Positions 346 through 2,300 of a stretch of 54,602 bases of DNA are shown here, piece after piece. Source of the DNA: Candidatus Woesearchaeota archaeon. Its GTDB lineage: Archaea > Nanobdellota > Nanobdellia > Woesearchaeales > UBA11576. Position 1 is the stretch's first letter; each line of letters starts with the position of its first letter. The translations under genes and the position numbers were made by a program. Location of the stretch: assembly GCA_013203345.1 (NCBI GenBank), contig JABMQF010000011.1, positions 1-54,602 of the forward strand, written 5' to 3'. The notes under the pieces were generated by a model. The model was given only the letters and a program-made list of their open reading frames with translations, did no database searches and was not told the origin of the DNA.

Positions 346-852
346 TTATTCTATTGTGAAATATTGAGGGTTATAAAATTCAAATTCTTGTCTTATTTGA
401 GATTCATGTCTCCTTTTTGCAGTTGGAGATAAGAAGATCTTTTTCAATGTATCAATATATAATTCACCCCGAACATATTTGATATCTGGATTGAGATAGT
501 GTTCGCTAAGACTTTCTATACAGGAATCATCTACATCAATTCCTAAAATTAAACCCCCATCACCATATTCAAAATTCAAAGCATATTTTTTAGTTGGTTC
601 AATATTATTTACCACAGTTATACATTTCACCCTATGTTCAATTTCGCATTCACCATAATGAGTAGATACCCATTCTAAAGCAAATTGGTCAATTGTCTTT
701 CCAGGATATTCTTTTTCAAAACTTCTGGATGGTTGCTCACGAAATATCCGCTCCAAAAACTCAATTTTTTGTTCTAAAGGTGAAAGAATTGCGCCAACTC
801 TAGCTATTGATATCCCCGCGCGTATGTTTGTACCATGATAAACTAATGTCAT
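346..852 (-). CDS. hypothetical 168-aa protein; possible ADP-ribosyltransferase-like fold (tentative)
   Basis: ATG at 852 gives a clean 168-codon ORF. A TATA-like TTTATTAA (875-882 on the minus strand) lies 23 nt upstream. The N-terminus LVYHGTNIRAGISIARVGAILSP resembles the H-G-[ST]...G...P first motif of PARP/DarT-type ARTs. The later Y and E motif positions are not securely identified. Confidence 0.55.
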   Translation of the reverse strand: MTLVYHGTNIRAGISIARVGAILSPLEQKIEFLERIFREQPSRSFEKEYPGKTIDQFALEWVSTHYGECEIEHRVKCITVVNNIEPTKKYALNFEYGDGGLILGIDVDDSCIESLSEHYLNPDIKYVRGELYIDTLKKIFLSPTAKRRHESQIRQEFEFYNPQYFTIE

Positions 853-901
853 GTAAATAAGAGCAAATAAAGACTTAATAAACCTTTCGAAGAATAACTA
901 C

Positions 902-933
902 TCAGAAGTAATAAAATATCCCTGCGGCAGGAT
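902..933 (-). repeat. copy 1 of a 32-nt repeat derived from the tRNA-Tyr 3' end plus T-rich trailer
   Basis: Plus strand TCAGAAGTAATAAAATATCCCTGCGGCAGGAT is 29/32 identical to copy 3 (2122-2153). It contains the small palindrome ATCC(C)TGC/GCAGGAT and lies between two minus-strand genes. Confidence 0.8.
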
Positions 934-985
934 GTTGAGAAAGTTTTGAGTATTAGTGATGTGCTAAAACAAAAACACACCAAAC

Positions 986-1981
986 TTATGCCTTCAAAGT
1001 TCTTCTCAATATACAAGAATAATCTCTATCTCGCAAATACCCTAACAAAACTTGTTTTGTATCATTTCCAGATAGTTTTGTGATTTTTCCATCACCTTTC
1101 CCACACATATATGGACATCTATAAAGTTCACCATCATAATCAACTGTTGCAGATGAACCCGCACCCATCTGGCATTGTCCATTGACAGATGTACTGTGCG
1201 CAAGACCAAAATCACTATGCCTTTTAGCTAATTCTTCAAGACGTTTTTGAGTGTCTAAGTTAGGATGTGGCTGGAAATCAGTATTGCAAATGAAGAATAT
1301 CCTATTTTCATTAGCAGACATCCTTAATCTCGCTACCTTCTGCCCATCATCGTCCAGATCATTTATTGAAACAACATAATTCATACCTAGCCTCGTCGTA
1401 CTTTCTGTTGGCCGGTTAGGATGATCTTCATAGGTCGAAATCAATCTTCTTAGATTTCTCGCGATTTCCGCCTGATTCTGTAATGGCTTTTTGGATGCCT
1501 GATATTCTTTTCCAGCAAAAAATTCATCATCTATGAATCTATTTCCAAATAAACTTATCATCACATTGGTCTCATTTTCAGCCAGAAAATTGCAGGTTCG
1601 CACATCAAGATTATTTCCTGCAGTAAAAATATAAGATTGGATGCCCTTGGTATTAGAATATTTTATTTTTTCCATAGTTTCGTCTGTCAATCTTGGATGA
1701 AGTGGATTTCCTCTTCCATTAATTGTGATGAACTTTGCATCATAATTCGCAGAGAAATAATCAATAACCTGTTTTATCTCGCTCATAGATAATCTTTCAT
1801 TAATTTTGATTCCTTGCGTCACGCAACCTTTACATGCTTGTTCCAATACACCCATATCTAATTCTACCAGTTCAGAACTTTTTTCACAATAGTTAGCAGA
1901 AGGCATGTTCAGTATAGTGATGGAATTATCTAAATCCTCAATCTCTTCCAATTTCTTTGTGATTTCAAGCTTTAGAGCCAT
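986..1981 (-). CDS. radical-SAM-like enzyme with non-canonical CX17CX2C cluster loop and SPASM/twitch-like Cys-rich C-terminus
   Basis: 331-aa ORF starting at ATG 1981, with TTTATAAA (2009-2016) 27 nt upstream. Motifs seen: NYC-x17-CKGC (nt about 1823-1888), FITINGRGNPLHP (GGEP-like SAM motif), and C-terminal CQMGAGSSATVDYDGELYRCPYMCG (like the SPASM/twitch G..v.pdG.vypC pattern). The canonical CX3CX2C is absent. Confidence 0.6.
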   Translation of the reverse strand: MALKLEITKKLEEIEDLDNSITILNMPSANYCEKSSELVELDMGVLEQACKGCVTQGIKINERLSMSEIKQVIDYFSANYDAKFITINGRGNPLHPRLTDETMEKIKYSNTKGIQSYIFTAGNNLDVRTCNFLAENETNVMISLFGNRFIDDEFFAGKEYQASKKPLQNQAEIARNLRRLISTYEDHPNRPTESTTRLGMNYVVSINDLDDDGQKVARLRMSANENRIFFICNTDFQPHPNLDTQKRLEELAKRHSDFGLAHSTSVNGQCQMGAGSSATVDYDGELYRCPYMCGKGDGKITKLSGNDTKQVLLGYLRDRDYSCILRRTLKA

Positions 1982-2035
1982 CTTGATGCTCAGAATTCCC
2001 TTTTACAATTTATAAATGTTTCGCATAATCACAAC

Positions 2036-2067
2036 TCAGAAGTAATAAAACATCCTTGCAACCAGAT
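2036..2067 (-). repeat. copy 2 of the 32-nt tRNA-Tyr 3'-end/trailer repeat
   Basis: TCAGAAGTAATAAAACATCCTTGCAACCAGAT is 26/32 identical to copy 3. It lies 54 nt from copy 3 and about 55 nt upstream of the radical-SAM-like gene start. Confidence 0.75.
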
Positions 2068-2121
2068 GGAAAGTAGTGGTTAAGTAGTAGAGATATTGTT
2101 AGGATGTATTTGATGCCTTAA

Positions 2122-2153
2122 TCAGAAGTAATAAAAAATCCCTGTGGCCGGAT
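2122..2153 (-). repeat. copy 3 of the 32-nt repeat (authentic tRNA-Tyr T-stem/acceptor 3' strand plus T-rich trailer)
   Basis: The reverse complement reads ATCCGGCCACAGGGA-TTTTTTATTACTTCTGA, which overlaps the last 15 nt of tRNA-Tyr. Confidence 0.85.
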
Positions 2154-2300
2154 TTTCTTGAAAACGGAAAAATACTCCGATTCCCATTTGAACCAGCGAC
2201 CTTCCGGTGACTGCTGTCCCACTTTCCTTCTAGGCTAGATGCCATGTCTGTGGGTGCTGATTAGCTACAGCCGGACGCACCACCGTTATGCTACACAGGG
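2139..2300 (-). tRNA. tRNA-Tyr (anticodon GTA) with two introns: canonical 37/38 (56 nt, 2209-2264) and T-loop (34 nt, 2152-2185)
   Basis: The minus strand reads CCCTGTG-TA-GCAT-AACGGTG-GTGC-G-TCCGG-CTGTAG[56 nt]A-CCGGA-AGGTC-GCTGG-TTCAAAT[34 nt]CCGGC-CACAGGG-A, followed by a T-run. The 7-bp acceptor stem is perfect, with the C1:G72 pair typical of archaeal/eukaryal tRNA-Tyr. All stems pair (two G:U). Confidence 0.85.

What the first reader, a model, noticed from the sequence alone, without database searches (positions are those of the whole stretch)
346..2300. tRNA-Tyr-anchored mini cassette array: each cargo gene is preceded by a diverged copy of the tRNA 3' end plus trailer and by its own TATA box
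On the minus strand the order runs as follows. tRNA-Tyr occupies 2300 to 2139, and its last 15 nt plus T-rich trailer form repeat copy 3 (2122-2153). After 54 nt comes copy 2 (2036-2067, 26/32 identical), then TTTATAAA (2009-2016), then the radical-SAM-like gene. After 52 nt comes copy 1 (902-933, 29/32 identical), then TTTATTAA (875-882), then the 168-aa gene. The homology extends beyond the 32-mer into the spacer and TATA region (CGAAACATTTATAAAT versus CGAAAGGTTTATTAAG). The duplicated unit is therefore 'tRNA-end hairpin + T-run + promoter'. This looks like serial site-specific insertion at the tRNA 3' end (nested att scars), or like an integron-style cassette arrangement. However, no recombinase gene is present in the window and the units are only 1.1 kb and 0.6 kb. 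The variable positions of copies 1 and 2 fall in the T-stem and acceptor strands, so the copies are old or come from different sources.
Basis: partly seen in the sequence, partly recalled or inferred. Interest (0 to 1): 0.75.

Follow-up and report, generated by a model that had tools for sequence, protein, structure and literature searches.

The report
tRNA-Tyr end copied before two genes
In a DPANN-type archaeal chromosome, the last 15 bases of a twice-interrupted tRNA-Tyr gene plus its trailer occur twice more just downstream, each copy in front of a gene; these are most likely old insertion scars, and nothing shows an active new cassette system.

Summary
A tRNA-Tyr(GTA) gene lies at 2300-2139 (-). 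ARAGORN and Rfam miss it because it has two introns; ARAGORN finds it once the 34-nt T-loop intron is removed. Its 3' exon plus trailer (2122-2153) recurs at 2036-2067 (26/32) and 902-933 (29/32), with no other copy in 54.6 kb.

New findings:
- The left edge of the repeat coincides with the 3' splice site of the T-loop intron.
- All 7 variable columns lie in the first 17 nt; the last 15 nt (TTTTATTACTTCTGA) are invariant.
- Copies 1 and 2 share about 91 nt with each other, including both flanks. The tRNA copy shares only the 32-38-nt core.
- The CGAAA..TTTAT similarity is the generic BRE/TATA promoter of this genome.
- The right flank, with an AGTAGT motif, is the 168-aa gene's own promoter and is conserved in orthologues elsewhere.
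- The 331-aa radical-SAM/SPASM-like gene is not in the context found in relatives.
- The 168-aa protein has an ADP-ribosyltransferase fold (Tpt1/DarT-like).

No recombinase, attC-like hairpin or split-tRNA partner was found, and no close relative was available for an empty-site test.

Best reading (about 0.45): decayed att-type duplications from single-crossover insertions at the tRNA-Tyr 3' end ("gene capture"). Main rival (about 0.3): recombinase-independent duplication of the intergenic terminator/promoter module. Interest is moderate.

The parts
2139..2300 (-). tRNA-Tyr(GTA) gene with two introns. Exon 1 is 2300-2265, the canonical 37/38 intron is 2264-2209 (56 nt), exon 2 is 2208-2186, the T-loop intron is 2185-2152 (34 nt; splice site ambiguous by 1-3 nt because AAAT is repeated), and exon 3 is 2151-2139.
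   Evidence: ARAGORN calls tRNA-Tyr only after the T-loop intron is removed. It is missed by ARAGORN and Rfam on the raw sequence. The fold shows a relaxed bulge-helix-bulge at the T-loop intron.
2322..2333 (-). TATA-like box (TTTAAAATATAA) about 33 nt upstream of the tRNA-Tyr 5' end.
   Evidence: Read directly from the sequence.
2122..2153 (-). Copy 3: last 2 nt of the T-loop, the T-stem 3' strand, the acceptor 3' strand and discriminator (15 nt), then the trailer T, T and the invariant 15-mer TTTTATTACTTCTGA.
2068..2121 (-). 54-nt spacer between copy 3 and copy 2. Its last 32 nt (2068-2099) form the left arm of unit 2.
   Evidence: In register, 18/32 bases match the left arm of unit 1. A free local alignment of the whole spacer to the tail of the 331-aa gene is not significant.
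2009..2099 (-). Unit 2: left arm (2068-2099), copy 2 core (2036-2067, 26/32 identical to copy 3), and right arm with GAGTTGT and BRE/TATA CGAAACATTTATAAA (2009-2023).
986..1981 (-). 331-aa radical-SAM/SPASM-like gene. The CX3CX2C motif carries a 14-aa insert (C32...C50xxC53). C-terminal cysteines are conserved.
   Evidence: 135 homologues, mostly DPANN archaea, at 44-64% identity; alignment A2; weak NCBIfam rSAM/SPASM hits. In L011, L040 and L043 the homologue sits next to a divergent 2xHTH regulator that is absent here.
875..965 (-). Unit 1: left arm (934-965, the 3' UTR of the 331-aa gene), copy 1 core (902-933, 29/32 identical to copy 3), and right arm with GAGTAGT and BRE/TATA CGAAAGGTTTATTAA (875-889).
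   Evidence: The right arm through to the ATG is conserved upstream of the orthologue on L013 (score 50 vs 22+-3) and more weakly on L046.
346..852 (-). 168-aa gene encoding an ADP-ribosyltransferase-fold protein (Tpt1/KptA- and DarT-like). Invariant residues are H6, T8 and R74. The TATA-to-ATG distance of 30 nt suggests a leaderless mRNA.
   Evidence: Family of 115 representatives. AlphaFold model with pLDDT 96. Foldseek top hits are Tpt1 and DarT (E 8.5e-5 to 7e-4, TM about 0.46-0.5). No Pfam family.
1..345 (.). Non-coding tail after the 168-aa gene. The contig ends here in three independent assemblies.
   Evidence: L001 ends at window position 11 and L002 at position 27. No long ORF is present.

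Best explanation
The three copies are the remains of Campbell-type (single-crossover) insertions of circular DNA at the 3' exon and trailer of tRNA-Tyr. This is the classical att duplication made by tRNA-targeting integrative elements, followed by decay of the elements ('gene capture').

How it would work: an incoming circle carries a site that matches the tRNA 3' end plus trailer. Recombination leaves an intact tRNA (copy 3) at one border and a displaced partial copy at the other. A second event at the same site gives the nested order seen here: tRNA, then a 54-nt remnant, then unit 2, the 331-aa gene, unit 1 and the 168-aa gene.

The recombinase is either lost or lies beyond the contig end.

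The parts of the repeat that are still recognisable coincide with signals that remain useful today: the T-run, the upstream AGTAGT-type motif and the BRE/TATA. That would explain why conservation is so uneven.

Shown: the repeats, their boundaries, the intact tRNA, the non-ancestral position of the 331-aa gene, and the absence of a recombinase in the window.

Inferred: that recombination (site-specific or homologous) made the repeats, the order of events, and any present-day terminator or promoter role.
For: 1. Three co-oriented copies of the tRNA 3' part plus trailer lie within 1.25 kb, directly downstream of an intact tRNA, and nowhere else in 54.6 kb.
2. The core has sharp edges on both sides. 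The left edge is in the T-loop, a classical tRNA integration sublocation, and archaeal att sites favour tRNA 3' ends and can run past the gene (review PMC8371274).
3. All three copies share the core, but only units 1 and 2 share both arms (left 18/32, P about 4e-4 to 4e-3; right 20/27). This is the pattern expected for junctions between tandemly inserted related DNAs as opposed to the tRNA border.
4. Tandem integration and loss of the integrase after integration are both documented in archaea (PMC8371274).
5. Direct repeats of tRNA fragments and intron gain have been tied to integration of mobile elements (PMC3293823).
6. In three of the eight relatives' loci examined, the 331-aa gene has a conserved divergent 2xHTH regulator as neighbour. 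Here it has none; only a roughly 30%-identical paralogue lies 33 kb away. None of the seven loci whose DNA was scanned carries the unit.
7. The cargo genes have the lowest GC nearby: 32.5% and 35.8% against 38.4% for the window.
8. Three assemblies break within 27 nt of each other 345 nt downstream, as expected next to repeated or strain-variable DNA.
9. The cargo is accessory-like: a patchily distributed radical-SAM gene and a Tpt1/DarT-like ART-fold protein.
Against: 1. No integrase or other recombinase was found by Pfam or PHROGs in any ORF of 200 aa or more, and no mobile-element hallmark gene lies in the inserts.
2. The units are tiny (86 nt and 1134 nt).
3. The flank to the right of the tRNA copy does not resemble the right arms of units 1 and 2 (9/27). 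The 54-nt 'element' therefore has to be explained by an ad hoc deletion.
4. The right arm is the 168-aa gene's own promoter, conserved in family members that are not next to tRNA-Tyr. Unit 2 must therefore contain a copied promoter, which a plain local duplication explains just as well.
5. All 7 variable columns fall in the first 17 nt and none in the last 15 (P about 0.006). This is not what neutral decay of scars predicts.
6. No empty site and no second genome could be examined.
Confidence: 0.45

Rival explanations
1. Recombinase-independent local duplication of an intergenic terminator/operator/promoter module. In this view the 168-aa gene originally sat directly behind tRNA-Tyr, so that the tRNA trailer ran into the gene's own upstream region. 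Segmental duplication (replication slippage, template switching, or unequal or homologous crossover) then copied the stretch from the T-loop to the TATA box. The relocated 331-aa gene came to be expressed from the copy. The repeats persist because they carry signals: the T-run, an AGTAGT-type upstream motif and the BRE/TATA.
For: - The 15-mer-to-ATG region is the native 5' region of the 168-aa gene. It is conserved upstream of the orthologue on L013 (score 50 vs 22+-3) and, more weakly, on L046/L047 (AGTAGT plus GAAAGGTTTA), in other genomic contexts.
- Homologues of the 331-aa gene lack this upstream region.
- The same window holds other duplicated regulatory pieces: a 32-nt promoter repeat flanking gene 10801-11808 (94%), and about 125 nt of the tRNA-Pro promoter plus its 5' end duplicated 180 nt upstream.
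- Conservation is uneven in the way function would predict: invariant 15-mer and conserved BRE/TATA.
- Copies 1 and 2 share a derived G at position 9, which fits descent from a single unit.
Against: - It does not explain the sharp core boundaries, nor why the left edge sits exactly at the T-loop/3'-exon junction.
- It still needs at least two separate events plus the arrival of a foreign gene between the copies.
- The left arm of the units is not derived from the tRNA side (9/32 and 5/32), so a junction was created at the T-loop, as a crossover would do.
- The copy nearest the tRNA lacks the promoter arm.
- No operator-binding protein or function has been shown.
Confidence: 0.3
2. An active cassette platform anchored on the tRNA end, analogous to an integron. 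Each cassette would consist of a promoter, a gene, and a short hairpin with a 15-nt core, and would be moved by a recombinase encoded elsewhere in the genome.
For: - Single-gene units lie in one orientation, each bounded by a site with an invariant 15-nt block and a variable neighbouring part.
- The unit sizes (86 nt, 1134 nt, and at least 0.6 kb) resemble cassettes.
- On L013 the 168-aa orthologue is again just downstream of a tRNA (Thr), and a 15-mer-like sequence lies on each side of it. The downstream one is only marginal (z about 3).
Against: - No IntI or any other recombinase was found.
- The sites do not fold as attC-like single-strand hairpins (z +0.2 to +1.0), and no R''/R' core motifs are seen.
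- The cassettes carry their own promoters.
- There are only three sites.
- The L046 orthologue keeps the promoter arm with no tRNA called by ARAGORN and no recognisable core upstream.
- The putative fourth site is not significant.
Confidence: 0.07
3. A generic transcription terminator or 3'-end motif of this organism that happens to resemble the tRNA end.
For: - Copy 1 passes a simple hairpin-plus-T-run scan.
- All copies contain TTTT(A)TT.
- The trailer of the second tRNA in the window (tRNA-Pro) is similar: TTTTTATTGTCTTTTGA, 3 edits from the 15-mer.
Against: - Only three copies exist among roughly 55 genes.
- With 3 edits allowed, matches are at chance level window-wide (about 16 expected).
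- The hairpins are no more stable than shuffled sequences.
- The identity includes 15 nt of tRNA sequence.
Confidence: 0.04
4. Copies 1 and 2 are functional 3' mini-exons of split or alternatively spliced tRNAs.
For: - DPANN and Nanoarchaeota are the classic home of split tRNAs (own knowledge).
- The copies start at the 3' splice site of a T-loop intron.
- Both keep a G72-compatible acceptor strand.
Against: - There is no promoter in the 52 to 54 nt ahead of them.
- Their leaders cannot form the TTC/GAA helix of the bulge-helix-bulge seen in the real intron.
- No complementary leader and no 5' partner exists in the window.
- Copy 2 would give a C-A mismatch and three G-U pairs with the Tyr 5' part (read from the sequence).
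Confidence: 0.02

Closest known systems
Archaeal integrative elements targeting tRNA 3' ends (SSV-type and pNOB8-type tyrosine integrases), tandem integration, and 'gene capture' after integrase loss (She et al. 2001/2004 as listed in PMC8371274; review PMC8371274).
   Same: Direct repeats of the tRNA 3' part plus trailer border the inserted DNA. An intact tRNA sits at one border. The repeats are nested or tandem at one tRNA. The core length of 32-38 nt is within the known range. The inserts carry no integrase, as in decayed elements.
   Different: There is no integrase or split int fragment, and no mobile-element genes. The inserts are only 86 nt and 1.1 kb. The repeat copies differ at 3-6 of 32 positions, all in the tRNA-derived half. 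Part of the repeat is a copied host promoter. The lineage is DPANN, for which I found no description of such sites in the papers I searched.
tRNA gene disruption model of Sugahara et al. 2012 (PMC3293823), and the idea that introns protect tRNA genes from integration (Randau and Soll, as cited in PMC3488258).
   Same: A tRNA fragment occurs as a direct repeat next to a multi-intron tRNA. An intron boundary coincides with the edge of the repeated fragment.
   Different: Their case has a recombinase gene between the repeats and a 5' fragment. Here the fragment is the 3' exon and no recombinase is present. T-loop introns appear to be common in this lineage (tRNA-Pro in the window, and the tRNA on L012), so the coincidence may not be specific to this locus.
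Integron cassette arrays and CALINs, including archaeal integrons (PMC9668308; title and abstract only).
   Same: An array of single-gene units in one orientation, each bounded by a recombination-site-like repeat.
   Different: There is no IntI and no attC-type folded hairpin or R''/R' cores. The cassettes have their own promoters. The anchor is a tRNA end rather than attI.
Lambda-type att organisation (a common core shared by attB and attP, with differing arms); own knowledge.
   Same: An invariant 15-nt block is shared by all sites, while the flanks are shared only among some of them.
   Different: No arm-type binding sites or recombinase are known here. The resemblance is formal only.

Membership tests
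tRNA-targeted integrated element (att duplication by a tyrosine or serine recombinase) | Direct repeat of part of the tRNA gene bordering the inserted DNA, in the same orientation. | tested here: met
   Three co-oriented copies with 26-29/32 identity and E 3e-5 to 8e-7.
tRNA-targeted integrated element (att duplication by a tyrosine or serine recombinase) | An intact, functional-looking tRNA reconstituted at one border. | tested here: met
   The spliced sequence folds as tRNA-Tyr(GTA) with a C1-G72 pair.
tRNA-targeted integrated element (att duplication by a tyrosine or serine recombinase) | An integrase gene (intact, or split into N- and C-terminal parts overlapping the att copies) in or next to the insert. 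| tested here: not met
   No recombinase family was found by Pfam or PHROGs in any ORF of 200 aa or more. The ORFs overlapping the copies are short and unremarkable. The contig ends 345 nt beyond the array, so the far side is unseen.
tRNA-targeted integrated element (att duplication by a tyrosine or serine recombinase) | Insert absent (empty site) in related genomes or strains. | tested here: inconclusive
   Scans of genome and metagenome collections for the core gave only chance hits. The upstream neighbour has no homologue. The two other assemblies of this locus are identical in structure.
tRNA-targeted integrated element (att duplication by a tyrosine or serine recombinase) | Mobile-element hallmark genes, or clearly foreign composition, in the insert. 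| tested here: inconclusive
   No hallmark genes are present: the inserts carry a radical-SAM gene and an ART-fold gene. No viral relatives were found. GC is 32.5-35.8% against 38.4% for the window. The 331-aa gene is out of its usual context.
Integron / attC cassette array | Integron integrase next to the array. | tested here: not met
Integron / attC cassette array | attC sites: imperfect palindromes that fold as single-strand hairpins, with conserved outer cores. | tested here: not met
   DNA folds of both strands of units 1 and 2 are no better than shuffled sequences (z +0.2 to +1.0). No RYYYAAC/GTTRRRY pair was seen by eye.
Integron / attC cassette array | Mostly promoterless cassettes expressed from a platform promoter. 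| tested here: not met
   Each gene has its own BRE/TATA 30-35 nt before the ATG.
Split or permuted tRNA gene pieces | The 3' piece has its own promoter and a leader complementary to the trailer of a 5' piece, forming a bulge-helix-bulge. | tested here: not met
   No TATA lies in the 52-54 nt ahead of the copies. No complementary leader or 5' partner exists in the window. The rest of the genome cannot be tested.
Generic terminator / dispersed intergenic repeat | Many copies downstream of unrelated genes. | tested here: not met
   Only 3 copies in 54.6 kb. The whole genome was not available.
Archaeal tRNA with a non-canonical (T-loop) intron | Intron flanked by a (relaxed) bulge-helix-bulge, whose removal restores a canonical cloverleaf. 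| tested here: met
   for Tyr and for tRNA-Pro in the same window. T-loop introns with relaxed BHB are known in DPANN ARMAN-2 (PMC3488258).

The most novel reading that the evidence does not exclude
The locus is a small, still-active cassette platform. The 3' exon and trailer of an intron-protected tRNA-Tyr would serve as the landing site. Single-gene cassettes, each with its own promoter and a short site built around an invariant 15-nt core, would be shuffled by a recombinase encoded elsewhere in this DPANN genome. A related reading is that the T-loop intron was delivered by, or selected against, such insertions, since its 3' splice site is exactly the repeat edge.
Probability: 0.08. Interest if true: 0.75.

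Novelty: new member of a known kind. Interest (0 to 1): 0.38.

Why it matters
If the att-scar reading is right, this is a compact example of gene capture at a tRNA gene in a DPANN archaeon, a group whose integrated elements are poorly described. It has an added point of interest: the duplicated segment begins exactly at the 3' splice site of a T-loop intron. That makes the locus a concrete test case for two standing ideas about disrupted archaeal tRNA genes. One is that introns block or mark integration sites. The other is that introns arrive together with attP sites.

The locus also shows how a relocated gene (the radical-SAM enzyme) can come to sit behind a copy of a neighbour's promoter.

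A practical lesson follows. Standard tRNA finders missed both tRNAs verified in this window, and tRNA-anchored features cannot be recognised without them.

If the rival is right and this is a plain duplication of a regulatory module, the finding is ordinary.

Tried and rejected
- Searching the core GGATNTTTTATTACTTCTGA in genome, metagenome and viral collections gave only single chance hits in unrelated bacteria. The source metagenome is not in the searchable DNA set.
- No empty site could be sought through the upstream neighbour: the 194-aa protein has no homologue.
- No relatives of either cargo protein were found on viral contigs.
- The integron/attC idea was rejected on folding and on the absence of IntI.
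- The split-tRNA or alternative 3' exon idea was rejected: no promoter, no BHB helix and no partner.
- Hairpin covariation was tested and is not significant with three sequences (166 of 500 shuffles). I therefore do not claim a conserved hairpin.
- I tested whether the 54-nt spacer is a collapsed copy of the tail of the 331-aa cassette. A free local alignment is not significant. Only the in-register 32-nt left arm is significant.
- A possible fourth copy downstream of the 168-aa gene (window and L013) is marginal (z 2.6-3.3) and is not counted.
- tRNA adjacency of the 331-aa family (window, L044, L012) is not above chance by my estimate: 2 of 7 loci excluding the window, P about 0.1.
- L044 has two full tRNA-Ser genes, not partial repeats.
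- The first AlphaFold run of the 168-aa protein, with 2 sequences, was useless (pLDDT 50). It succeeded with 40 sequences.
- A C/D-box sRNA reading of the CTGA in the 15-mer was considered by eye and dropped because no C box is nearby.
- A third tRNA-like 3' end at 37491-37520 could not be resolved into a tRNA.

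
Full report
**What the window is.** The 54.6-kb window is a piece of archaeal chromosome. 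It encodes ribosomal proteins S7 and L15e and a family-B DNA polymerase. The 331-aa protein of the finding has 135 homologues, and those that carry a name are mostly Woese-, Pace-, Nano-, Aenigm- or Micrarchaeota. The host is therefore a DPANN-type archaeon with about 38% GC. The same locus was assembled independently from two other JGI samples (L001 and L002, 99.97-100% identical). All three contigs stop within 27 nt of one another, 345 nt beyond the 168-aa gene.

**Checking the observation.** The repeats are real.
- The 15-mer TTTTATTACTTCTGA occurs exactly three times, all on the minus strand at 902-916, 2036-2050 and 2122-2136, even with two mismatches allowed. Chance predicts 0.55 matches.
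- The repeat finder returns a three-copy, 38-nt family and an 86-nt pair at 72%.
- In a self-BLAST the pairs score E 8e-7 and 3e-5.
- A profile built from the two long units finds only these three places in the window (E 3e-27, 4e-27 and 3e-5).

**The tRNA.** The tRNA needed proof, because ARAGORN and Rfam, even at E<=1, find no tRNA anywhere in the window. Read by eye, positions 2300-2139 have a 7-bp acceptor stem, a GTA anticodon, a 56-nt intron at the canonical 37/38 position, and a second 34-nt intron inside the T-loop. Once the T-loop intron is removed, ARAGORN calls tRNA-Tyr(GTA) with the 56-nt intron. With both introns removed it gives a clean cloverleaf with the C1-G72 pair typical of archaeal tRNA-Tyr (the identity-element statement is my own knowledge). 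The minimum-energy fold of the precursor puts two 3-nt bulges around a short TTC/GAA helix at the T-loop intron, which is a relaxed bulge-helix-bulge.

A second tRNA in the window, tRNA-Pro(GGG) at 39867-39764, has a 30-nt intron at the same T-loop position. A tRNA on a relative's contig (L012) does too. T-loop introns with relaxed BHB motifs are known in DPANN ARMAN-2 (PMC3488258), so the intron itself is not new.

1. The left edge of the repeat (ATCC...) coincides, to within 1-3 nt, with the 3' splice site of the T-loop intron. The repeated segment is therefore the 3' exon plus the trailer.
2. All 7 variable columns lie in the first 17 positions and none in the last 15 (P about 0.006). Copies 1 and 2 share a derived G at position 9.
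3. Units 1 and 2 are homologous to each other over about 91 nt. The 32 nt to the left of the core match at 18/32 in register (P about 4e-4 against random window 32-mers, 4e-3 against composition shuffles). The 27 nt to the right match at 20/27. The tRNA copy shares neither arm (5-9/32 and 9/27). The core that all three copies share has sharp edges on both sides.
4. The similarity 'CGAAACATTTATAAAT vs CGAAAGGTTTATTAAG' is mostly the generic BRE/TATA promoter of this genome. RAAANNTTTAWAWA occurs 9 times against 0.34 expected, upstream of several genes. An almost identical 32-nt promoter stands in front of two unrelated adjacent genes at 10.7 and 11.8 kb.
5. The 'hairpin' is weak. RNA folding z-scores are -1.8, +0.8 and -0.35. 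Only copy 1 passes a simple terminator scan. With three sequences, covariation is not significant.

**The two genes.**

*The 331-aa protein* belongs to a radical-SAM/SPASM-like family. The CX3CX2C motif is intact in short-form homologues that hit Pfam PF04055. The branch containing the window's protein carries a 14-residue insert (C32...C50xxC53). C-terminal cysteines are conserved.

I looked at eight homologue loci. In three of them (L011, L040, L043) the gene is paired divergently with a double-HTH AsnC-type regulator, and these regulators are 60-76% identical to each other. The window has only a roughly 30%-identical paralogue, 33 kb away. The other loci differ again. None has tRNA-Tyr, and none of the seven whose DNA was scanned carries the unit. 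In this genome, then, the gene sits in a derived position.

*The 168-aa protein* looked like a near-orphan in the word-indexed search, with one homologue at 53%. An exhaustive profile search then found 115 family representatives. With 40 of them as the alignment, AlphaFold gives a pLDDT of 96. The fold matches tRNA 2'-phosphotransferase Tpt1/KptA and the DNA ADP-ribosyltransferase DarT (Foldseek E 8.5e-5 to 7e-4, TM about 0.46-0.5). The invariant H6-G-T8 sits where these enzymes bind NAD+ (that last point is my own knowledge). I therefore call it an ART-fold protein of unknown target.

Its upstream region, from the 15-mer through GAGTAGT and the BRE/TATA to the ATG, is conserved upstream of the orthologue on L013 (alignment score 50 against 22+-3 for shuffles). 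There the gene lies 220 nt behind a tRNA-Thr. The region is conserved more weakly on L046/L047 (AGTAGT plus GAAAGGTTTA, z about 2.8), where ARAGORN finds no tRNA. The right arm of unit 1 is therefore the 168-aa gene's own promoter, and the right arm of unit 2, in front of the 331-aa gene, is a copy of it.

Both genes have lower GC (32.5% and 35.8%) than the window (38.4%) and than nearly all neighbouring genes.

**Is there a recombinase?** No. Every ORF of 200 aa or more was scanned against Pfam, and the ten with no Pfam hit also against PHROGs. None hits an integrase, transposase or other recombinase. The last 345 nt of the contig hold no long ORF.

**Is it found elsewhere?** The core pattern gave only single chance hits in unrelated bacteria in the genome, metagenome and viral collections. 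The source metagenome is evidently not in the searchable DNA set. The 194-aa upstream neighbour has no homologue, so no relative's tRNA-Tyr locus could be reached. The empty-site test could therefore not be done.

**Explanations.** The pattern has three elements:
- an intact tRNA followed by co-oriented partial copies of its 3' part plus trailer;
- a core with sharp edges, the left one in the T-loop;
- flanks shared only between the two distal sites.

This is what single-crossover insertion of circular DNA at a tRNA 3' end leaves behind, and what tandem insertions of related DNAs produce. Archaeal integrases favour tRNA 3' ends. Their att sites can extend beyond the gene. Tandem integration and later loss of the integrase are documented (PMC8371274). 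Direct repeats of tRNA fragments next to multi-intron tRNAs have been linked to integration of mobile elements (PMC3293823). The displaced position of the 331-aa gene, the low GC of both genes and the common assembly break just beyond the array fit this reading. I therefore rank 'decayed att-type duplications (gene capture) at tRNA-Tyr' first, at about 0.45.

The evidence against it is substantial:
- There is no recombinase and no mobile-element gene.
- One 'element' is only 54 nt and lacks the expected right arm.
- Part of the repeat is a copied host promoter.
- The invariant 15-mer next to a variable tRNA-derived half is not what neutral decay predicts.

The main rival (about 0.3) is a recombinase-independent duplication of the intergenic module (T-run, upstream motif, BRE/TATA), kept because it is useful. 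Other duplicated regulatory pieces in the same window support it: the 10.7/11.8-kb promoter pair, and about 125 nt of the tRNA-Pro promoter plus its 5' end. It does not explain the boundary in the T-loop, nor how a foreign gene came to lie between the copies.

Three further readings rank lower:
- An active integron-like platform (about 0.07) fails the defining tests: no IntI, no attC-like fold, and each gene has its own promoter.
- A generic terminator (about 0.04) is contradicted by the copy number.
- Functional split-tRNA pieces (about 0.02) lack a promoter, a BHB and a partner.

**Verdict.** The feature is best filed as a new, small and decayed example of a known kind (att-like duplication and gene capture at an archaeal tRNA gene). 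Its point of interest is that the duplicated segment starts at a T-loop intron boundary in a DPANN genome. Interest is moderate, because the decisive data (flanking sequence, population variants, relatives) could not be obtained with the collections at hand.

Noticed in passing
window 7413-7575 (+), 32078-32240 (-), 54562-54602: A structured repeat of about 160 nt is present in two full copies (78% identical, in inverted orientation) and a third partial copy, inside which the contig ends. It has a long GC-rich outer stem whose differences between copies look compensatory. The RNA fold is -63 kcal/mol (z -2.2). There is no Rfam hit. It could be an unknown ncRNA or a MITE.
   Followed up: partly
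window 39764-39867 (-): tRNA-Pro(GGG) with a 30-nt T-loop intron at the same position as in tRNA-Tyr. ARAGORN and Rfam miss it. Its trailer (TTTTTATTGTCTTTTGA...TGAGTTGTG) faintly resembles the tRNA-Tyr trailer and unit 2.
   Followed up: partly
window 40036-40154 vs 39858-39963 (-): About 125 nt of the A-rich upstream region of tRNA-Pro, plus the first 11 nt or so of the tRNA, are duplicated about 180 nt further upstream (71-79% identical). The upstream copy runs into two strong hairpins. It may be a 5' tRNA-fragment duplication or an unknown small RNA.
   Followed up: partly
window 37491-37520 (-) and upstream to about 37717: A tRNA-like T-arm and acceptor 3' end (GGGGGTTCGATTCCCTCGCTCCACA followed by a T-run) lies directly after the AbiLii gene. 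No complete tRNA could be reconstructed with a single intron. It may be a multi-intron tRNA or a fragment. If it is a tRNA, the AbiLi/AbiLii pair sits between two tRNA genes.
   Followed up: partly
window 10732-10763 and 11826-11857 (+): A 32-nt direct repeat (94% identical) containing a BRE/TATA (CAGTGAYAACAAAACAAAACATTTATAAA) stands in front of the 335-aa TAT-signal protein gene and the next small ORF. It is a duplicated or shared promoter with no tRNA involved.
   Followed up: partly
window about 26000-39600: A defence-gene cluster: a BRO-N/PDC-S13 protein (26010-26939), an LmuB-like SMC ATPase (29502-31970), and an AbiLi/AbiLii (AAA_21 plus RloB) pair (37721-39590).
   Followed up: no
window 986-1981 (-) and alignment A2: In the DPANN-dominated branch containing the window's protein, the radical-SAM CX3CX2C motif is split by a 14-residue insert (C32...C50xxC53). 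Shorter homologues (mostly unnamed; one is from a KSB1 bacterium and one from a Micrarchaeota archaeon) keep the canonical spacing.
   Followed up: partly
window 2343-6120: The genes upstream of tRNA-Tyr are orphans. The 194-aa protein has an internal 54-nt repeat (2516-2561 and 2570-2615). The 1014-aa protein has internal repeats (5167-5278/5356-5467 and 5500-5641/5713-5860). Neither has a Pfam hit, and the 194-aa protein has no homologue in the protein search. This looks like a 'dark-matter' island around the tRNA.
   Followed up: no
L044 860-940 and 3815-3898: In a relative (GCA_003358065.1), the homologue of the 331-aa family lies 104 nt downstream of tRNA-Ser(CGA). A second tRNA-Ser(GGA) lies 3 kb upstream in the same orientation, and their 3' halves and trailers are homologous. 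These are two full genes, not partial copies.
   Followed up: partly
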